40,323 nucleotides of DNA from the IMG/VR virus record IMGVR_UViG_2695420876_000014. One strand, written 5' to 3'. The notes beneath the pieces are model-generated. The model searched no databases, was not told the DNA's origin, and saw only the letters and a list, made by a program, of their open reading frames with translations. This DNA is from a virus (taxonomy: Duplodnaviria; Heunggongvirae; Uroviricota; Caudoviricetes). A program made the position numbers and the translations under genes. Below, in pieces: positions 1 to 35,334 of the stretch; the stretch's first letter is position 1, and every line of letters starts with the position of its first letter.

Positions 1-1248
1 ATGGCACTGAATATTCCATTCAGAAATGCGTACTATCGTTTTGCATCCAGTTACTCATTTCTCTTTTTTATTTCCTGGTCGCTGTGGTGGTCGTTATACG
101 CTATTTGGCTGAAAGGACATCTAGGGTTGACAGGGACGGAATTAGGTACACTTTATTCGGTCAACCAGTTTACCAGCATTCTATTTATGATGTTCTACGG
201 CATCGTTCAGGATAAACTCGGTCTGAAGAAACCGCTCATCTGGTGTATGAGTTTCATCCTGGTCTTGACCGGACCGTTTATGATTTACGTTTATGAACCG
301 TTACTGCAAAGCAATTTTTCTGTAGGTCTAATTCTGGGGGCGCTATTTTTTGGCTTGGGGTATCTGGCGGGATGCGGTTTGCTTGATAGCTTCACCGAAA
401 AAATGGCGCGAAATTTTCATTTCGAATATGGAACAGCGCGCGCCTGGGGATCTTTTGGCTATGCTATTGGCGCGTTCTTTGCCGGCATATTTTTTAGTAT
501 CAGTCCCCATATCAACTTCTGGTTGGTCTCGCTATTTGGCGCTGTATTTATGATGATCAACATGCGTTTTAAAGATAAGGATCACCAGTGCGTAGCGGCA
601 GATGCGGGAGGGGTAAAAAAAGAGGATTTTATCGCAGTTTTCAAGGATCGAAACTTCTGGGTTTTCGTCATATTTATTGTGGGGACGTGGTCTTTCTATA
701 ACATTTTTGATCAACAACTTTTTCCTGTCTTTTATGCAGGTTTATTCGAATCACACGATGTAGGAACGCGCCTGTATGGTTATCTCAACTCATTCCAGGT
801 GGTACTCGAAGCGCTGTGCATGGCGATTATTCCTTTCTTTGTGAATCGGGTAGGGCCAAAAAATGCATTACTTATCGGAGTTGTGATTATGGCGTTGCGT
901 ATCCTTTCCTGCGCGCTGTTCGTTAACCCCTGGATTATTTCATTAGTGAAGTTGTTACATGCCATTGAGGTTCCACTTTGTGTCATATCCGTCTTCAAAT
1001 ACAGCGTGGCAAACTTTGATAAGCGCCTGTCGTCGACGATCTTTCTGATTGGTTTTCAAATTGCCAGTTCGCTTGGGATTGTGCTGCTTTCAACGCCGAC
1101 TGGGATACTCTTTGACCACGCAGGCTACCAGACAGTTTTCTTCGCAATTTCGGGTATTGTCTGCCTGATGTTGCTATTTGGCATTTTCTTCTTGAGTAAA
1201 AAACGCGAGCAAATAGTTATGGAAACGCCTGTACCTTCAGCAATATAG
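1..1248 (+). CDS. cscB: sucrose:H+ symporter CscB (LacY-family MFS permease)
   Basis: 415-aa ORF with a polytopic hydrophobic profile; N-terminus MALNIPFRNAYYRFASSYSF and overall sequence recognised as the E. coli csc-regulon sucrose permease; first codon is the first base of the window. Confidence 0.93.
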   Translation: MALNIPFRNAYYRFASSYSFLFFISWSLWWSLYAIWLKGHLGLTGTELGTLYSVNQFTSILFMMFYGIVQDKLGLKKPLIWCMSFILVLTGPFMIYVYEPLLQSNFSVGLILGALFFGLGYLAGCGLLDSFTEKMARNFHFEYGTARAWGSFGYAIGAFFAGIFFSISPHINFWLVSLFGAVFMMINMRFKDKDHQCVAADAGGVKKEDFIAVFKDRNFWVFVIFIVGTWSFYNIFDQQLFPVFYAGLFESHDVGTRLYGYLNSFQVVLEALCMAIIPFFVNRVGPKNALLIGVVIMALRILSCALFVNPWIISLVKLLHAIEVPLCVISVFKYSVANFDKRLSSTIFLIGFQIASSLGIVLLSTPTGILFDHAGYQTVFFAISGIVCLMLLFGIFFLSKKREQIVMETPVPSAI

Positions 1249-18691: not shown

Positions 18692-19015
18692 ATGAAGATG
18701 CCAGAAAAACATGACCTGTTAGCCGCCATTCTCGCGGCAAAGGAACAAGGCATCGGGGCAATCCTTGCGTTTGCAATGGCGTACCTTCGCGGCAGATATA
18801 ATGGCGGTGCGTTTACAAAAACAGTAATCGACGCAACGATGTGCGCCATTATCGCCTGGTTCATTCGTGACCTTCTCGACTTCGCTGGACTAAGTAGCAA
18901 TCTCGCTTATATAACGAGCGTGTTCATCGGCTACATCGGTACTGACTCGATTGGTTCGCTTATCAAACGCTTCGCTGCTAAAAAAGCCGGAGTAGAAGAT
19001 GGTGGAAATCAGTAA
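18692..19015 (+). CDS. S: holin S (class I, dual-start MKM)
   Basis: 107 aa; [39 protein letters not shown]... recognised as lambda S. Confidence 0.95.
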
Positions 19016-19475
19016 TCAACGTAAGGCGTTCCTCGATATGCTGGCGTGGTCAGAGGGAACTGATAACGGACGTCAGAAAACCAGAAATCATGGTTATGAC
19101 GTCATTGTTGGCGGAGAGCTATTCACTGATTACTCCGATCACCCTCGCAAACTTGTCACGCTAAACCCAAAACTCAAATCAACAGCAGCCGGACGTTACC
19201 AGCTTCTTTCCCGTTGGTGGGATGCCTACCGTAAGCAGCTTGGTCTGAAAGACTTCTCTCCCAAAAGTCAGGACGCTGTGGCATTGCAGCAGATTAAAGA
19301 GCGTGGCGCTTTACCGATGATTGATCGCGGTGATATACGTCAGGCAATCGACCGTTGCAGCAATATTTGGGCTTCAATGCCTGGGGCTGGTTACGGTCAG
19401 TTCGAGCATAAGGCTGACAGCCTGATTGCAAAATTCAAAGAAGCAGGCGGAACGGTCAGAGAGATTGAGGTATGA
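18999..19475 (+). CDS. R: endolysin R (lytic transglycosylase)
   Basis: 158 aa; ...[43 protein letters not shown]... recognised as lambda R. Confidence 0.95.
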
Positions 19476-27525: not shown

Positions 27526-27714
27526 ATGGCACGAACAATGCTCTATAAGCCGGGCAACATGATCACCTGTGGTCAGTTTGCTGTCGATTACATCATTGTT
27601 GATGACGAAGAAGTTAAATCTCACCTGAAAAAAGGCTGGGTAAAAACTCCTGAAGAAACCGCAACGAAGCAAAAAGTGGCTAAGGCGGAAGAAGATGGCG
27701 AAAACGAAGGGTGA
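27526..27714 (+). CDS. hypothetical small virion-module protein
   Basis: Track ORF 27490..27714 trimmed to MARTMLYKPG... (SD gggaga), placing the start after the terminator. Confidence 0.45.
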   Translation: MARTMLYKPGNMITCGQFAVDYIIVDDEEVKSHLKKGWVKTPEETATKQKVAKAEEDGENEG

Positions 27715-28156
27715 TCTCGTTCTTAAGGCTTTACGAAAAGCCGGGCTGTATTCCAATGCCACGTTGACAGATGCTGACCCTCAGGCAATTGAAGATGCCA
27801 TTAATGACCTCGAAGACATGATGGCAGCATGGCAGGCAAAAGGTATCGAGCTTGGGTATCAGTTTGCTGATACAGAAAACGGCATCATGCCGTTACCTGA
27901 CGATGATTCAGGTATCCCTGCATGGGCAAATGATGGCGTCGCTTTGAAACTCGCTGTGCAAGTGTGCATGGATAACGTCATTCAGCCGTCAGACGCTCTC
28001 CTTACCGCTGCTGACAGTGCATATCAGACAATCTGTATCGCTTTAACCAAAATACCACCACTTGAGCGGAGAAATGACATGCCTCGCGGTAGTGGTAACA
28101 AAAGCGCGTTTACGTGGAATCGGTTTTACATCGAGAAAGATGATCCGAGTACGTGA
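27695..28156 (+). CDS. head-to-tail adaptor (P22 gp4-like)
   Basis: 153 aa in the gp4 position; assigned by gene order. Confidence 0.55.
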   Translation: MAKTKGDLVLKALRKAGLYSNATLTDADPQAIEDAINDLEDMMAAWQAKGIELGYQFADTENGIMPLPDDDSGIPAWANDGVALKLAVQVCMDNVIQPSDALLTAADSAYQTICIALTKIPPLERRNDMPRGSGNKSAFTWNRFYIEKDDPST

Positions 28157-30742: not shown

Positions 30743-31435
30743 ATGTTATATGCATTTAAGCTGGGCAGAAAACTGCGCGGAGAGGAACCTTATTGCCCTG
30801 AAAAAGTCGGGAAAGGTGGCAGTTCTGATAAAAGCGCAAAGTATGCCGCAGAAGCTCAGAAGTATGCCGCAGACCTGCAAAATCAGCAGTGGCAGACGAT
30901 CATGAAAAACCTTGCTCCGTTCACGCCGCTTGCGGAGCAGTATGTTAACCAGCTTCAGAATCTTTCCAGTTTAGAAGGTCAGGGGCAGGCACTTAATCAG
31001 TATTACAACTCTCAGCAGTATAAAGACCTTGCAGGTCAGGCTCGTTACCAGAGTCTTGCTGCTGCGGAGGCGACGGGTGGACTTGGTTCGACAGCCACAA
31101 GCAATCAACTGGCTACGATCGCGCCGACTCTCGGTCAGTCTTGGTTATCAAACCAGATGAGCAATTACAACAATCTGGCAAACGTTGGGCTTGGTGCGCT
31201 GCAAGGTCAGGCAAACGCCGGGCAGACGTACGCCAACAACATGAGCAGCATTGCACAGCAAAGCGCAGCTCTTGCCGCTGCTAATGCCAATAAACCATCA
31301 GGCCTTCAGACAGCAATTAGCGGCGGAACGTCAGGTGCGATTGCCGGTGCAGGTCTTGCCAGCCTTTTGGGAACATCAACGCCTTGGGGCGCTGGCATTG
31401 GTGCTGGTATCGGATTGCTTGGCTCGTTGTTTTAA
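30743..31435 (+). CDS. ejection protein (P22 gp7-like)
   Basis: 230 aa (P22 gp7 is ~229 aa); Gln/Ala/Gly-rich low-complexity sequence. Confidence 0.55.
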   Translation: MLYAFKLGRKLRGEEPYCPEKVGKGGSSDKSAKYAAEAQKYAADLQNQQWQTIMKNLAPFTPLAEQYVNQLQNLSSLEGQGQALNQYYNSQQYKDLAGQARYQSLAAAEATGGLGSTATSNQLATIAPTLGQSWLSNQMSNYNNLANVGLGALQGQANAGQTYANNMSSIAQQSAALAAANANKPSGLQTAISGGTSGAIAGAGLASLLGTSTPWGAGIGAGIGLLGSLF

Positions 31436-31444
31436 GGGGTAATC

Positions 31445-32776
31445 ATGGCTACTTGGCAAGGAACAAACGGCGGATTGTTGGCTGGTATCGGCGGCGTCAA
31501 CTCAAACGCTCCGAGCGTAAATGACATCGGCAATACGCTTCAGCTTATCAGGCAGAACAATGATATTGAGCGTTCAGGCGCTAACAATGTTGGGCTGACT
31601 GCTTTGCAAGGCCTTTCAGGTATTGCAGGGGTGTTTCAGCAGGAAAAGCAGGCTCAGCGGCAGAAAGAATTTCAGCAGGCGTACGCTAATGCTTATGCGT
31701 CTGGTGATCGCGGTGCTTTGCGTCAGTTGGCTACTCAATATCCAGACCAGATTGAATCTGTTCGCAAAGGCATGGGATTCATTGATGAAGACCAGCGCAA
31801 TTCTATCGGCACCTTAGCTGCTGGCGCACGCCTTGCTGCCTCGTCTCCAGAAGCAATGCAATCATGGCTGCAAAACAACGCCGGTGAGTTAGCTCGTGTT
31901 GGCGTTAATCCTCAGGACGTCGCTCAGATGTACCAACAGAACCCGCGGCAGTTCGGCGAATTTGTCGATCACCTGGGGATGAACAGTCTCGGACCCGAAA
32001 AATACTTTGACCTACAGGATAAAATGCAGGGTCGCCAGGTTACCATGCGCGGTCAGGACCTGGATTCGCAAACCGCCGCTCGGAATCAGGCAATCACAAT
32101 GCGCGGACAAGATATCCAGGCGAATTTAGGTCAGCAGCGCATTAATCTGGACGCAGAAACAAACCGCATTAACAACGAAAATAAGCGCCTTGACCGGATG
32201 CTATCTGCAGAAACTAACGACCTGAAGCGCCAGGAAATACAGAGCCGCATAGCAGCCAACAACCAGCAGTTGCAGCAGAAGCAGCAAGCGCTAAATGATG
32301 GCTACAAAGACGGCATCAACACCCTCACAACCAGCATGTTCACTCTGAACGATATCGTTAGTTCTCCTTCACTTAAGAGCATTACAGGCTTACGTGGAGT
32401 AATCCCCAACGTTCCAGGCTCACAGGCTGCAGACACTCAGGCACGACTTGATACCTTTAAATCACAAGCATACCTGACAGCGGTTCAGGCCATGCGAGGC
32501 ATGGGCGCACTTTCTGATGCCGAGGGCAAAAAGCTCGACCAGGCTGTTGGTTCGCTGCAGAACTCGCAGAGCGAGGAGTCCTTTCGTCGCAACGCTGGCG
32601 TCATCCTGAACACGCTCAACCAGAAGCGTAATGAGGCGGTTGGTAAGTACGTTCAGCAAAACGGTATCAAGCGAGTGGAAGCGCCTCAGGCTTCTATAGA
32701 TTACCTGAAGCAGCACCCAGAGTTGTCAATCGACTTCATTAATCGCTACGGATATCTTCCATCTTTGGGGCAGTAA
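31445..32776 (+). CDS. ejection protein (P22 gp20-like)
   Basis: 443 aa in the gp20 position; assigned by order and size. Confidence 0.55.
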   Translation: MATWQGTNGGLLAGIGGVNSNAPSVNDIGNTLQLIRQNNDIERSGANNVGLTALQGLSGIAGVFQQEKQAQRQKEFQQAYANAYASGDRGALRQLATQYPDQIESVRKGMGFIDEDQRNSIGTLAAGARLAASSPEAMQSWLQNNAGELARVGVNPQDVAQMYQQNPRQFGEFVDHLGMNSLGPEKYFDLQDKMQGRQVTMRGQDLDSQTAARNQAITMRGQDIQANLGQQRINLDAETNRINNENKRLDRMLSAETNDLKRQEIQSRIAANNQQLQQKQQALNDGYKDGINTLTTSMFTLNDIVSSPSLKSITGLRGVIPNVPGSQAADTQARLDTFKSQAYLTAVQAMRGMGALSDAEGKKLDQAVGSLQNSQSEESFRRNAGVILNTLNQKRNEAVGKYVQQNGIKRVEAPQASIDYLKQHPELSIDFINRYGYLPSLGQ

Positions 32777-35170
32777 ATGGCTAATTACCGTGATTTGTTA
32801 GAGCAGGCTGGCGCACGTTACGGTGTGCCAGAAGGGTTGATGACTGCACTTGGTGCCAAGGAGTCTTCTTACAACCCTGCCGCAGTAAGCTCCGCCGGGG
32901 CTGTAGGATTGACTCAGGTCATGCCTGGGACATGGCGTGATATGGGTTATACCGATGAGCAAATGCAAAACCCCGAATATCAGGCTGACGCTGGCGCGCG
33001 CTATCTGGCAAAGATGTACCAGCAGTTTGGTAACTGGCGTGACGCTCTTCAGGCTTATCACGACGGTCCCGGCAACGTTATGAAGGCAAAGCGTGGTGAA
33101 TATACGCCAGGACCTGAAGGCCGCGGTTACGTTGATGATCGCTTTGCTCAATGGGCGGGTGACCCGGTGACAGACTCAACAGTCGAACAGCGCGCCACCT
33201 CCGCAAAGGTACATCCTCAGCAAGACCCTAACAACCCGTTTGCACAACTGGAAGCACAGTCATCCGAACAAGTATCGGCATCAGGCGTGCAGTCAGACCC
33301 AAATAATCCATTTGCTCAGATTGAGCAGCAGGCAGCCAGTCAGCAGCCACCTCAACCCGTAAGTTCTGTCGCACCGAAACCTGTTCAGCAGCAAGGCGGA
33401 ATAATGTCTGACCTTGGTAATGGACTTGCTGAAACCGGGCGCGGCTTACTACAGGCAGGAATCAACGTAGCGAACATACCCGCTGAACTCACTGATGCTG
33501 TAACAAGCGCGGCGGCTTGGGCTGGCGGTAAACTCGGCATTGGCGATGGTACATATCAACCAGCACCACGAGTAACAACGCAGGGATTAGAGCGGGACTT
33601 TGGCCTTCAGCAAGGCGCGCTGACTCCACAAACGACAGAGGGCAGGGTATTTGCTGAGGCATTGCCTTATCTCACTCCTGCTGGCGTTGAGAGAGCGGCA
33701 GCACAGGCACCAACACTTGCTGGTCGAATTGCTCAGGGGGCAACTCGCCTTCTAGCAGAAAACGCAGTTGGATCACTTGCTGCAAATAGTGCGAAAGATG
33801 ATGCGGAAGCACTCGCCACCGATTTAGGCGTTGGTGTGCTGGCTGGCGGCGCTATTAACGCAGCTGGACGTGGATTAGGTGCTGCTTATCGTGGCGTTCG
33901 TGGTGCTATCACGCCAGAAGCGCAGCAGGCTATCAGATTTGCAGAGCGTGAAGGAGTTCCTCTGCACACCACAGACCTGTTACAACCCACTTCCCGCGTC
34001 GGAAAAATGGCGCAGACTACAGCAGAAAATATCCCTCTGGCTGGCACAAGCGGAATGAGAGCAACGCAACAGGAAGCGAGAAGCCAGTTGGTGCAGAGAT
34101 TTGCTGATAAATTCGGCGAGTATGATCCAGCGGTTATTATTGACAGCCTTAAAGCGAAAACATCAGGAATTCGTCGCGCTGCAGGGAACCGTCTTGAGCA
34201 GGTTCAGAATGCAATGGCGGGAGTCAATATCCTGCCTGCGCGAGCAATTCAGCAGATTGATACCGAGATATCTAATCTGCAGAAGCTTGGTAAGGTCGCT
34301 GATAACGAGACTATTTCAAAACTTCAGTCATATCGTGATGAGCTTGTTCGCAATGCTGGCCCTGATGGTCCGGTAAATCTTGATTTGAAGCAATTAAGCG
34401 ATCTGCGCAGCCAGTTCAGAATGGACGTGAAGGGGGAACGACCAGTGTTACCAAACCGTTCCGATGCTGCCATTCAGCGCGTTTACAAGGCGATGACAGA
34501 CGATATCAATGGTGCCATTGGTCAGAATCTTGGTAACGATACTCTCCGTAAATATCAGCAGGCCAATGCCGTCTACGCTGACGAAGCGGCGAAACTAAAG
34601 AATACCAGGCTGAAGAATGTTCTCATGAAAGGCGACCTGACGCCGGAAGTTGTCAACAACATGCTATTCAGCAAGAACAAATCGGAAATTAAGACGCTGT
34701 ATAACTCAGTTGGTCGTGTTGGCAGGGCGCAAATGCGCAATGGCATCATTGGAAAGGCGATGGAGAAATCAGGGGGTTCACCTGACCAGTTCCTTCGACA
34801 GCTTAACATCCTGCAAAACCAGACTGGCATCACATTTAAGGGGCAGGACGCTGCTTATCTGAAAGGATTGAAAAATTACCTGCAATCCACGCAGCAGGCT
34901 GCAAAAGCGGCAGTAACAACACCAACAGGGCAGCAAACCATCCCGTTCATTATCGGGTATGGGACGGCAATGAACCCGGCGACAACTGGCGCAGCAGTAA
35001 GCTACGGACTTCTTACTCGCGCCTATGAGAGCGAACCATTCAGAAATGCAATGCTCCGAATGGCAAACACCCCACGCGGATCAACAGACTTTGAGAAAGC
35101 AATGCAGCAGGCACAAAAGGCAATTAACGCTCTGACGCAGGGGGCTAAGTCTGATGCGTTGTCAGAATAG
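32777..35170 (+). CDS. ejection protein (gp16 position) with an N-terminal lytic transglycosylase domain
   Basis: 797 aa; N-terminus ...LGAKESSYNPAAVSSAGAVGLTQVMPGTWRDMGY...AYHDGPGN matches the catalytic Glu-Ser and downstream motifs of SLT domains. Confidence 0.7.
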   Translation: MANYRDLLEQAGARYGVPEGLMTALGAKESSYNPAAVSSAGAVGLTQVMPGTWRDMGYTDEQMQNPEYQADAGARYLAKMYQQFGNWRDALQAYHDGPGNVMKAKRGEYTPGPEGRGYVDDRFAQWAGDPVTDSTVEQRATSAKVHPQQDPNNPFAQLEAQSSEQVSASGVQSDPNNPFAQIEQQAASQQPPQPVSSVAPKPVQQQGGIMSDLGNGLAETGRGLLQAGINVANIPAELTDAVTSAAAWAGGKLGIGDGTYQPAPRVTTQGLERDFGLQQGALTPQTTEGRVFAEALPYLTPAGVERAAAQAPTLAGRIAQGATRLLAENAVGSLAANSAKDDAEALATDLGVGVLAGGAINAAGRGLGAAYRGVRGAITPEAQQAIRFAEREGVPLHTTDLLQPTSRVGKMAQTTAENIPLAGTSGMRATQQEARSQLVQRFADKFGEYDPAVIIDSLKAKTSGIRRAAGNRLEQVQNAMAGVNILPARAIQQIDTEISNLQKLGKVADNETISKLQSYRDELVRNAGPDGPVNLDLKQLSDLRSQFRMDVKGERPVLPNRSDAAIQRVYKAMTDDINGAIGQNLGNDTLRKYQQANAVYADEAAKLKNTRLKNVLMKGDLTPEVVNNMLFSKNKSEIKTLYNSVGRVGRAQMRNGIIGKAMEKSGGSPDQFLRQLNILQNQTGITFKGQDAAYLKGLKNYLQSTQQAAKAAVTTPTGQQTIPFIIGYGTAMNPATTGAAVSYGLLTRAYESEPFRNAMLRMANTPRGSTDFEKAMQQAQKAINALTQGAKSDALSE

Positions 35171-35334
35171 CTTTTCAAACACCAGGAACGTGCAAAAACC
35201 AAATATGTAGAACGCAATATTCAACAGATCTCTTTGCATAGACTCATCTCATAATTAACAAATCATAACTGACATTAGTGCAATGCTGGGCAAGTTGCAT
35301 CTTGTCAGGCATTGCTACGTCCGGAGCAAATTAA

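What the first reader, a model, noticed from the sequence alone, without database searches (positions are those of the whole stretch)
32777..35170. Enlarged gp16-position ejection protein carrying an N-terminal lytic transglycosylase domain
The protein in the position of P22 gp16 is 797 aa (about 609 aa in P22 as I recall) and begins with a clear SLT-type domain. This indicates a virion-borne peptidoglycan hydrolase delivered during DNA ejection, separate from the lambda-type endolysin R.
Basis: partly seen in the sequence, partly recalled or inferred. Interest (0 to 1): 0.4.

Follow-up and report, generated by a model that had tools for sequence, protein, structure and literature searches.

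The report
P22-type ejection protein with cell-wall cutter
The largest DNA-ejection protein of this P22/Sf6-like E. coli prophage really does start with an intact cell-wall-cutting (lytic transglycosylase) domain, but the same protein is common in public genomes and already annotated that way, so it is real but ordinary.

Summary
The ORF at 32777-35170 (+) encodes 797 aa and follows the gp7 and gp20 homologues and precedes the tailspike. P22 gp16 is 609 aa and Sf6 gp13 is 665 aa. Residues 1-130 form a family-1 lytic transglycosylase (SLT) domain: Pfam E=2e-25, and Glu29 aligns with the catalytic Glu of E. coli Slt70 and T7 gp16. A confident model superposes on both. Residues 131-206 are a disordered Gln/Pro-rich linker with two NPFAQ motifs. 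Residues 207-797 are an Sf6-type gp16 body.

It is not new. The full-length gene is in 52 of 5426 complete E. coli genomes, named "lytic transglycosylase domain-containing protein". The same module is annotated "transglycosylase" in phage Sf101. The same architecture occurs in Cronobacter, Klebsiella, Kosakonia, Murrayvirus and Skarprettervirus.

Extra findings:
- The SLT module travels with the C-terminal half of gp20 as one 1.4-kb mosaic cassette.
- The module is nearly identical in DNA across phages whose gp16 bodies have diverged.
- A 2022 review's statement that P22-like phages lack this domain is too broad.

The parts
32777..35170 (+). Whole gene: gp16-position ejection ('DNA transfer') protein, 797 aa, 84.9 kDa
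   Evidence: ORF; mass; PHROG 770 and Pfam SLT; 97.8% nt identity to the unannotated IME10 gene and 98.7% to E. coli 573 WP_258334536
32777..33166 (+). N-terminal family-1 lytic transglycosylase (SLT) domain, aa 1-130
   Evidence: Pfam PF01464 E=2e-25, aa 7-110. AF2 model pLDDT >80 for aa 1-130. Foldseek: Slt70 1qte TMq 0.71; T7 gp16 7eyb_I TMq 0.67, rmsd 2.7 A
32861..32863 (+). Codon GAG for the predicted catalytic Glu29 (motif K28-E29-S30). The other family motifs are G44-L-T-Q47 and A93-Y-H-D-G-P-G99
   Evidence: Aligned to Slt70 E478 and T7 gp16 E37; invariant in 19 homologues; sequence read
33167..33394 (+). Acidic Gln/Pro/Ser-rich linker, aa 131-206, predicted disordered, ending at the recombination junction (...PVQQQ|GG)
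   Evidence: Composition and pI 4.3; pLDDT <50 from aa 132; identity to Sf101 stops at about nt 618 of the gene
33224..33253 (+). First DPNNPFAQLE short motif (aa 150-159)
   Evidence: Regex and conservation
33296..33325 (+). Second DPNNPFAQIE short motif (aa 174-183)
   Evidence: Related N-x-F-[ADE]-[QE]-[FLIVM] motifs occur in Murrayvirus and Skarprettervirus homologues and in metagenomic homologues
33395..35167 (+). Sf6-type gp16 body, aa 207-797: basic (pI 9.5), largely helical, with a Gly/Ala-rich hydrophobic stretch at aa 342-370
   Evidence: About 93% nt identity to Sf6 gp13 from window 33389 onward by blastn; 94.9% over gene nt 676-2394 by megablast. PHROG 770; hydropathy; purifying selection dN/dS 0.06-0.12
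31982..33388 (+). Mosaic cassette that replaces the Sf6-type sequence: gp20 from about aa 180 to 443, plus gp16 aa 1-204
   Evidence: Pairwise blastn breakpoints against Sf6, Gally and VSe13. The two halves occur in the same six complete phages and in matching numbers of E. coli genomes, 70 and 69
31445..32776 (+). gp20 homologue (443 aa), the periplasmic channel protein; its stop abuts the gp16 start
   Evidence: Pfam Inj_translocase E=4.7e-68; PHROG 2534
30743..31435 (+). gp7 homologue (230 aa), ejection protein
   Evidence: Pfam P22_gp7 E=1.4e-133
18999..19475 (+). Lambda R-type endolysin (158 aa), the separate exit enzyme
   Evidence: PDB 1am7 E=2.5e-104; flanked by an S-type holin and Rz
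27695..28156 (+). gp4 homologue (tail adaptor). In P22 this is the protein listed in reviews as the virion-associated muralytic activity
   Evidence: Pfam P22_Tail-4 E=7e-41; PMC5380687 Table 2 citing Moak & Molineux 2004

Best explanation
This is the third ejection (pilot) protein of a P22/Sf6-like prophage integrated at argW. It has three modules:
1. An N-terminal family-1 lytic transglycosylase domain (aa 1-130).
2. A disordered acidic Gln/Pro linker with two NPFAQ motifs (aa 131-206).
3. An Sf6-type gp16 body (aa 207-797).

Proposed mechanism, inferred from P22 and T7 biology:
- The protein is made late, without any export signal, and is packaged into the procapsid. P22 carries about a dozen gp16 copies.
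- On infection it is expelled through the portal-tail channel ahead of the DNA and refolds in the periplasm.
- There the SLT domain cuts MurNAc-GlcNAc bonds locally, with Glu29 as the acid catalyst, producing 1,6-anhydroMurNAc ends.
- This opens the sacculus for the gp20 dodecameric barrel that must cross it.
- The body inserts at the cytoplasmic membrane and completes the DNA conduit under the gp20 C-terminal 'club foot'.

By analogy with T7 gp16, the enzyme is probably conditionally beneficial (cold, stationary-phase or highly cross-linked wall) rather than essential. It is independent of the lambda R endolysin used for exit.
For: Shown by tools:
- ORF and synteny.
- SLT HMM at 89 bits.
- Glu29 aligned to Slt70 E478 and T7 gp16 E37.
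- All three family motifs are conserved, and K28, E29, S38, G41, G44, Y94, G97, G99 and N100 are invariant across 19 homologues down to 42% identity. All 12 distant 850-1050-aa representatives keep K-E-[S/T].
- Confident domain model (pLDDT 84.5) matching Slt70, Slt, MltE and T7 gp16 in the virion core and in the ejectosome tunnel.
- No hydrophobic or signal segment in aa 1-340.
- The body is under purifying selection, dN/dS 0.06-0.12.
- The gene is intact in 52 complete E. coli genomes and in isolated, plaque-forming phages (IME10, phiKp_30; the module is also in Sf101, Huey and Dewey).

From the literature:
- P22 injects about 12 gp16 (abstract of PMC8402733).
- The P22 gp20 barrel crosses the peptidoglycan and its C-terminal domain templates gp16. 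The order is needle, gp7, gp16, gp20 (bioRxiv 10.64898/2026.09.03.749273).
- The T7 gp16 N-terminal transglycosylase is needed for genome internalisation when the wall is highly cross-linked (PMC8954989).
Against: - No experiment on this protein, or on any P22-like SLT-gp16, was found in the searchable literature.
- Activity, packaging and ejection are all by analogy.
- P22 and Sf6 infect without any SLT on gp16, so the domain cannot be essential to the mechanism as such.
- In P22 a different virion protein, gp4, is the one listed as muralytic, and this prophage also has a gp4 homologue.
- The full-length structure prediction was poor (pLDDT 44.9), so nothing can be said about how the SLT domain sits relative to the body.
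Confidence: 0.8

Rival explanations
1. The SLT domain is kept mainly as a structural piece of the trans-envelope channel, for example docking onto the gp20 C-terminal domain as T7 gp16-N does on gp15. Catalysis would be irrelevant or lost.
For: [quoted passage not shown]
- Here the SLT module is always inherited together with one particular gp20 C-terminal half.
- P22 and Sf6 work without the enzyme.
Against: - The catalytic Glu and the substrate-groove motifs are invariant across homologues at 42-60% identity. A purely structural role would not require this.
- The linkage to gp20-C is also explained by simple adjacency, since the two genes abut.
Confidence: 0.1
2. The domain acts at the end of infection: unpackaged protein reaches the wall through holin lesions and helps lysis from within.
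For: It is expressed from the late operon together with the lysis genes. The S-type holin is present, and lambda-type holin lesions are non-specific (established knowledge, not tested here).
Against: - A complete lambda-type S/R/Rz cassette is already present.
- The domain is fused to an ejection protein in every lineage examined and sits in the ejection-gene block, not the lysis block.
- It has no SAR or signal sequence.
Confidence: 0.05
3. The long ORF is an artefact or a decaying gene: a fusion of two genes by frameshift or deletion in a defective prophage.
For: Deletion chimeras that join other genes to the gp16 body at the same Gln-rich linker do exist in databases. P0111 is a gp26-gp16 fusion, P0116 a gp7-gp16 fusion and P0114 a NinG-gp13 fusion.
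Against: - The identical 797-aa architecture is present in 52 complete E. coli genomes, in one 90%-identity cluster with 1295 member sequences (P0010), and in isolated phages (IME10, phiKp_30).
- There are no internal stops.
- Diverged versions of the same architecture occur in several genera.
Confidence: 0.01

Closest known systems
Phage T7 gp16 (internal virion protein D; PDB 7EYB, 7K5C)
   Same: - It is the largest and last-encoded protein of the three-gene ejection set.
- The SLT domain is at the extreme N-terminus, with the catalytic Glu aligned (T7 E37 to E29; 28% identity, E=4e-11; TMq 0.67, rmsd 2.7 A).
- It is followed by an extended non-globular segment and then a large helical part thought to reach the inner membrane.
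- It has no export signal and is delivered by ejection.
   Different: - No detectable homology beyond the SLT domain: PHROG 342 matches only aa 3-189, and there are no PDB hits for the body.
- 797 aa versus 1318 aa.
- P22-like virions lack a T7-type core stack (PMC8954989).
- It works like T7 gp16-N but is not a member of the T7 gp16 family.
P22 gp16 / Sf6 gp13 (PHROG 770 'DNA transfer protein'; Pfam PF26808 on near-identical homologues)
   Same: - Same gene position.
- The body (aa 207-797) is about 93-95% identical in DNA to Sf6 gp13, and the whole protein is 34% identical in amino acids to P22 gp16.
- Same conserved start of the body (G-x-M-S/Q-x-x-G).
   Different: P22 and Sf6 carry short (about 60-75 aa) non-enzymatic N-terminal modules in place of the SLT domain plus NPFAQ linker. 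Pfam finds no SLT in them.
Sf101 gp13 (911 aa, 'transglycosylase'), IME10 and phiKp_30 797-aa proteins, and RefSeq 'lytic transglycosylase domain-containing protein' entries of E. coli prophages
   Same: - The SLT-plus-linker module is 99-100% identical.
- IME10, phiKp_30 and E. coli 573 have the same full-length 797-aa architecture.
   Different: - Sf101 joins the same module to a different, P22-like or longer body.
- In IME10 the gene is simply not annotated.
Murrayvirus IME_EC2 gp26 (1007 aa) and Skarprettervirus gp17 (977 aa) 'DNA transfer protein / transglycosylase'
   Same: - Same position after the gp7-like and gp20-like genes and before the tailspike.
- SLT domain 58-67% identical.
- Same type of short N-x-F-D-Q-F motif after the domain.
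   Different: - They have an extra N-terminal copy of the motif and a 30-45-aa leader before the SLT domain.
- The body is much more diverged: BLAST similarity is essentially confined to aa 4-271.
E. coli Slt70 and other family-1 lytic transglycosylases (MltE, MltC, MltD, P. aeruginosa Slt)
   Same: Catalytic-domain fold and motifs.
   Different: Those are Sec-exported housekeeping enzymes with superhelical, LysM or lipoprotein modules. This one is a signal-less domain on a virion protein.

Membership tests
Family-1 lytic transglycosylase / Pfam SLT (PF01464, GH23) | HMM score above the curated gathering threshold | tested here: met
   89 bits versus 21.3, E=2e-25, aa 7-110 covering profile 2-110 of 117
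Family-1 lytic transglycosylase / Pfam SLT (PF01464, GH23) | Catalytic glutamate in the E-S motif at the end of the second helix | tested here: met
   E29-S30 aligns with Slt70 E478-S479 and T7 gp16 E37-S38; invariant in 19 homologues
Family-1 lytic transglycosylase / Pfam SLT (PF01464, GH23) | Second and third signature motifs (G-L-M/T-Q and A-Y-N/H-x-G) | tested here: met
   G44-L-T-Q47 and A93-Y-H-D-G-P-G99 in the translation; G44, Y94, G97 and G99 invariant
Family-1 lytic transglycosylase / Pfam SLT (PF01464, GH23) | Lysozyme-like all-helical fold | tested here: met
   Predicted model only: pLDDT 84.5. Foldseek probability 1.00 to 1qte (TMq 0.71), 5ohu, 5o1j, MltE and 7eyb_I
Family-1 lytic transglycosylase / Pfam SLT (PF01464, GH23) | Non-hydrolytic cleavage of peptidoglycan giving 1,6-anhydroMurNAc | not testable with these tools
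   Needs enzyme assay or zymogram plus muropeptide analysis
P22 gp16 / Sf6 gp13 ejection ('DNA transfer') protein | Sequence membership | tested here: met
   PHROG 770 E=2.2e-238, aa 108-797 over profile 3-666 of 668. PF26808 is precomputed on 99%-identical proteins. 89% aa identity to Sf6 gp13 over the aligned part
P22 gp16 / Sf6 gp13 ejection ('DNA transfer') protein | Gene order gp14-gp7-gp20-gp16 upstream of the tailspike | tested here: met
   same order in Sf6, Sf101, IME10 and P22 records
P22 gp16 / Sf6 gp13 ejection ('DNA transfer') protein | Present in virions and released before the DNA | not testable with these tools
   Known for P22 (abstract of PMC8402733). Needs virion proteomics or an ejection assay for this phage
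P22 gp16 / Sf6 gp13 ejection ('DNA transfer') protein | Membrane-active segment(s) for the cytoplasmic-membrane part of the channel | tested here: inconclusive
   Only one moderately hydrophobic Gly/Ala-rich stretch, aa 342-370 (Kyte-Doolittle maximum 1.36); the full-length model is unreliable
T7 gp16 (internal virion protein D) | N-terminal SLT domain on the last ejection protein | tested here: met
T7 gp16 (internal virion protein D) | Homology of the remaining ~1100 residues (the core-stack-forming part) | tested here: not met
   PHROG 342 matches aa 3-189 only. PDB sequence hits are confined to the SLT domain. It is therefore an analogue in function and layout, not a family member

The most novel reading that the evidence does not exclude
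The gp20 C-terminal half (the barrel that crosses the wall plus the 'club foot') and the gp16 N-terminal module (SLT plus the twice-repeated NPFAQ-type motif) may be a co-adapted docking pair. This would be the P22-lineage counterpart of the T7 gp15:gp16-N periplasmic tunnel with its 'molecular tape', which would explain why they are exchanged between phages as one cassette. The conserved N-x-F-[ADE]-[QE]-[FLIVM] motif would be the docking or packaging signal. The SLT-bearing form would be ancestral, and P22 and Sf6 would be reduced derivatives.
Probability: 0.2. Interest if true: 0.45.

Novelty: already known. Interest (0 to 1): 0.2.

Why it matters
The practical value is modest.

[quoted passage not shown] About one in five of the E. 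coli genomes that match this gene carry the SLT module (70 of 348).
- It offers natural matched pairs for testing what a virion-borne wall-cutting enzyme contributes to podovirus DNA entry: the same Sf6-type body with and without the SLT module, and the same SLT module on three different bodies.
- It flags that RefSeq's name 'lytic transglycosylase domain-containing protein' has spread to 665-aa Sf6-type proteins in which no SLT domain is detectable.

None of this changes how these phages are understood.

Tried and rejected
1. Full-length AlphaFold2 with a 13-sequence alignment gave mean pLDDT 44.9 and pTM 0.27. It was too poor to use for domain arrangement or a fold search, so only the separate 149-aa model was used.
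2. My first DNA alignment across the junction used a mis-registered Sf6 slice. The Sf6 row is meaningless and only the Sf101 and IME10 rows were used. Breakpoints were re-derived by blastn.
3. dN/dS for the SLT module among E. coli phages cannot be computed, because there are only 0-2 substitutions. Constraint was instead judged from deep homologues.
4. Proteins P0111, P0114 and P0116 first looked like alternative N-terminal 'cargo' modules on the gp16 body. Their sequences show they are gp26-, NinG- and gp7-to-gp16 fusions. I read these as deletions or assembly chimeras, not natural modules.
5. I suspected the window was a free phage genome, because the integrase lies next to the tailspike side and a LacY-like gene opens the window. 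This was rejected: E. coli 573 has the same layout, cscB ... torI ... intS-argW, which is the Sf6/KplE1 arrangement with int and xis at opposite prophage ends.
6. Casjens & Thuman-Commike 2011, the paper most likely to have described gp16 N-terminal types, is not held. I cannot say whether the SLT type was already noted there.
7. The PADLOC library and metagenome or genome-contig scans were not used, because nothing suggested they would change the answer.
Full report
**1. What is there**

The window is a complete P22/Sf6-like prophage. It runs from a host LacY-family sucrose permease gene (1-1248; Pfam LacY_symp) to an integrase gene whose start codon is the last base of the window (39172-40323, minus strand). 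E. coli strain 573 carries a closely related prophage in the same place, between the csc sucrose genes and intS-tRNA-Arg, with torI (the excisionase gene) at the far end. This is therefore an ordinary argW prophage of the Sf6/KplE1 type, with int and xis at opposite ends.

The ORF named in the finding exists exactly as described. It lies at 32777-35170 on the + strand, has an ATG start and encodes 797 aa. Its ATG directly follows the TAA stop of the upstream gene. The upstream genes, in order, are homologues of P22 gp4, gp10, gp26, gp14, gp7 and gp20, and the next gene downstream is a tailspike with the P22 head-binding domain. P22 gp16 is 609 aa and Sf6 gp13 is 665 aa.

**2. The N-terminal domain is a genuine, apparently intact lytic transglycosylase**

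- Pfam SLT (PF01464) matches residues 7-110 at 89 bits against a cut-off of 21.3, E=2e-25. P22 gp16 and Sf6 gp13 give no SLT hit.
- Against solved structures, the best sequence match is E. coli Slt70. The alignment places Glu29 of K-E-S on the catalytic Glu478.
- A pairwise BLAST with T7 gp16 (28% identity, E=4e-11) places Glu29 on T7 Glu37. PMC8954989 marks that residue as the catalytic glutamate.
- The other two family signatures are present: G-L-T-Q at 44-47 and A-Y-H-D-G-P-G at 93-99.
- In an alignment with 18 homologues down to 42% identity, K28, E29, S38, G41, G44, P50, T52, Y76, Y94, G97, G99 and N100 are invariant.
- An AlphaFold2 model of residues 1-149 with that alignment is confident for residues 1-130 (mean pLDDT 84.5) and disordered after about residue 131.
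- Foldseek matches the model to Slt70 (TMq 0.71), P. aeruginosa Slt, further entries described as 'lytic transglycosylase', MltE, MltD and MltF. It also matches T7 gp16 in the virion core (7eyb_I; TMq 0.67, rmsd 2.7 A over 128 columns) and in the ejectosome tunnel (7k5c_B).

**3. Architecture of the rest of the protein**

- Residues 131-206 are an acidic (pI 4.3) Gln/Pro/Ala/Ser-rich linker. It contains two copies of D-P-N-N-P-F-A-Q-[L/I]-E.
- Residues 207-797 are basic (pI 9.5) and match PHROG 770 'DNA transfer protein' at E=2e-238. They are about 93-95% identical in DNA to Sf6 gp13.
- There is no hydrophobic segment in the first 340 residues, so there is no signal or SAR sequence. The only moderately hydrophobic stretch is Gly/Ala-rich, at 342-370.
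- The full-length structure prediction was too poor to use (pLDDT 44.9).

**4. It is a mosaic, and the module is mobile**

- Gene nucleotides 1-618 are 99.2% identical to phage Sf101 gp13 (911 aa), whose body is of a different type, resembling P22 near its start and longer. Identity stops abruptly at ...CCTGTTCAGCA(G/A)CAA, which is aa 206.
- From window 33389 onward the gene is Sf6-like.
- Relative to Sf6, Gally and VSe13, the replaced block runs from 31982 to 33388. That covers gp20 from about residue 180 to its end, plus gp16 residues 1-204.
- Among sequenced phages, the gp20 C-terminal type (at least 97% aa identity) occurs in APC_JM3.2, Huey, Dewey, phiKp_30, IME10 and Sf101. These are exactly the complete phages that carry the at-least-99% SLT module. 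The next-nearest gp20 C-termini are about 37-42% identical and belong to phages in which the closely related SLT module was not found; Sf6 and VSe13 were checked directly and lack an SLT hit.
- In 5426 complete E. coli genomes, the SLT module is found in 70 and the gp20 C-terminal segment in 69. I did not check that these are the same genomes.
- The SLT-plus-linker DNA is almost invariant (dS about 0.01-0.02) between this prophage, IME10 and phiKp_30. The bodies differ by dS 0.10 and 0.46 respectively, with dN/dS 0.06-0.12.

The cassette has therefore spread recently by recombination onto at least three different gp16 bodies.

**5. How common, and how well known**

- The full-length gene is present in 52 of 5426 complete E. 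coli genomes. In all 25 rows displayed, the feature under the match is named 'lytic transglycosylase domain-containing protein'.
- A search of 5.8 billion protein clusters shows the same SLT + PF26808 architecture in E. coli (one cluster alone has 1295 members), Cronobacter, Klebsiella aerogenes, Kosakonia and Enterobacter.
- GenBank annotates the Sf101 gene as 'transglycosylase'.
- In other genera with P22-type tail modules (Murrayvirus IME_EC2, Skarprettervirus), the gene in the same position is 977-1007 aa and starts with an SLT domain 58-67% identical to this one.
- A scan of 1.84 billion representatives finds about a dozen 50%-identity clusters of 850-1050 aa with this layout. All keep K-E-[S/T].
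- Some of these clusters (P0137, P0180) combine a P22-gp16-like N-terminal motif (M-D-V-x-L-P-N-G-K/R-...) with an SLT domain. It is therefore at least as likely that P22 and Sf6 are reduced forms as that this protein is 'enlarged'. That step is inference.

I found no paper that studies the domain in a P22-like phage. [quoted passage not shown] The data here show that statement is too broad. The 2011 Casjens & Thuman-Commike survey could not be read.

**6. Most likely mechanism**

Shown here:
- An intact SLT catalytic domain, without an export signal, fused to a P22-family ejection protein in the ejection-gene block.
- Conservation of the catalytic motifs over deep divergence.
- A separate complete lambda-type lysis cassette: holin, R (1am7, E=2.5e-104) and Rz.

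Taken from the literature on relatives:
- P22 virions carry about 12 gp16 molecules that leave the virion before the DNA (abstract of PMC8402733).
- In situ structures of infecting P22 show a gp20 dodecameric barrel (residues 186-255) crossing the peptidoglycan, and a C-terminal 'club foot' proposed to template a gp16 assembly in the cytoplasmic membrane. The proposed order of ejection is needle, gp7, gp16, then gp20 (bioRxiv 10.64898/2026.09.03.749273).
- The T7 gp16 N-terminal transglycosylase is needed for genome internalisation only when the wall is highly cross-linked (PMC8954989).

Inference: after ejection the N-terminal domain refolds in the periplasm and cuts glycan strands locally. 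This clears the way for the gp20 barrel, while the body completes the channel at the inner membrane. The benefit is probably conditional, because P22 and Sf6 manage without it. In P22 the activity listed in reviews as the virion-associated lysin is gp4 (PMC5380687), and a gp4 homologue is present here too.

**7. Rivals**

- A purely structural role for the domain is possible but fits poorly with the invariant catalytic residues.
- A role in lysis from within is unnecessary given S/R/Rz, and does not explain the constant fusion to an ejection protein.
- An ORF-fusion artefact is excluded by the number of intact copies, including those in plaque-forming phages.

**8. What remains open and mildly interesting**

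- The gp20-C/gp16-N cassette corresponds closely to the parts of the two proteins that the P22 in situ work places next to each other. It also resembles the T7 gp15-C:gp16-N pairing. However, the two genes abut, so co-inheritance may be mere linkage.
- The short motif N-x-F-[A/D/E]-[Q/E]-[F/L/I/V/M] occurs twice in 106 of the 112 listed homologues that carry the SLT signature, and in none of seven without it (a single listed sequence lacking the signature also has two copies). It occurs twice in the Murrayvirus and Skarprettervirus proteins, there once at the extreme N-terminus and once after the SLT domain. It never occurred twice in 20000 shuffles of this protein. No function is known for it.

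**9. Verdict**

The feature is a known, already annotated architecture that is functionally analogous to T7 gp16-N. Interest is low.

Noticed in passing
window 33224-33253 and 33296-33325 (aa 150-159 and 174-183 of the 797-aa protein); also L007 4908 and 5454, L008 4902 and 5451: A short motif, DPNNPFAQ[L/I]E, generalised as N-x-F-[ADE]-[QE]-[FLIVM], occurs twice just after the SLT domain. It is conserved in Cronobacter, Klebsiella and Kosakonia homologues. In Murrayvirus, Skarprettervirus and metagenomic homologues it occurs once at the very N-terminus (MANxFDQF...) and once after the SLT domain. It never occurred twice in 20000 shuffles. Its function is unknown; docking, packaging signal or something else are all possible.
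   Followed up: partly
window 31982-33388: The C-terminal ~260 residues of gp20 and the first ~204 residues of gp16 form one mosaic cassette relative to Sf6-type phages. The two halves co-occur in the same six complete phages and in 69 and 70 E. coli genomes respectively. The SLT half is almost invariant in DNA while the attached gp16 bodies differ by dS 0.1-0.46.
   Followed up: yes
P0117, P0119; L003 2722-4719 (VSe13): RefSeq/GenBank name 665-aa Sf6-type gp13 proteins 'lytic transglycosylase domain-containing protein'. Pfam finds no SLT domain in Sf6 gp13 or in the VSe13 protein, and NCBIfam finds nothing in Sf6 gp13 (VSe13 was not run against NCBIfam). The name appears to have spread from the SLT-bearing relatives.
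   Followed up: partly
window 37431-38756 (-): A 441-aa polytopic membrane protein sits in a low-GC island (31-37% versus about 50% for the structural genes), between the tailspike and intS, in the position of Sf6 oac or P22 gtr. It has no Pfam hit and matches only PHROG 14022, 'unknown function'. It is probably an O-antigen-modifying (serotype-conversion) moron of an uncharacterised type.
   Followed up: partly
window 35171-35334: Only 164 bp separate gp16 from the tailspike gene. There is no immI region (sieA, mnt, arc, ant) as in P22, and no Arc gene as in the otherwise similar E. coli 573 prophage.
   Followed up: no
P0111, P0114, P0116: Database proteins in which gp26, NinG or gp7 sequence runs directly into the gp16/gp13 protein. 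In P0111 and P0116 the join lies in the Gln-rich linker just before the G-x-M/I-S-D-L-G motif. In P0114 a NinG-like N-terminus is joined near the start of a complete Sf6-type gp13. They look like large deletions in decaying prophages, or assembly chimeras. The linker may be a deletion or recombination hot spot.
   Followed up: partly
P0097, P0105 (880-886 aa): Some homologues carry an extra ~95-residue block after the second NPFAQ motif (KGLIQEGNIDIHNRP...GKHLG.FDNP..A..YAE.LH). It is a further module of unknown function, absent from the window.
   Followed up: no
window 33404-33406 (Met210): The methionine at the start of the gp16 body is invariant in P22, Sf6, Sf101 and IME10, and is preceded by AAGGCGGAATA. 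An internal start producing an SLT-less body is conceivable but untested. The conservation may equally be structural.
   Followed up: no
window 1-1248 and 39172-40323; L006: The window is trimmed to gene boundaries, from the host cscB-like sucrose permease to intS. The prophage sits at argW with int and xis (torI) at opposite ends, as in Sf6/KplE1.
   Followed up: yes
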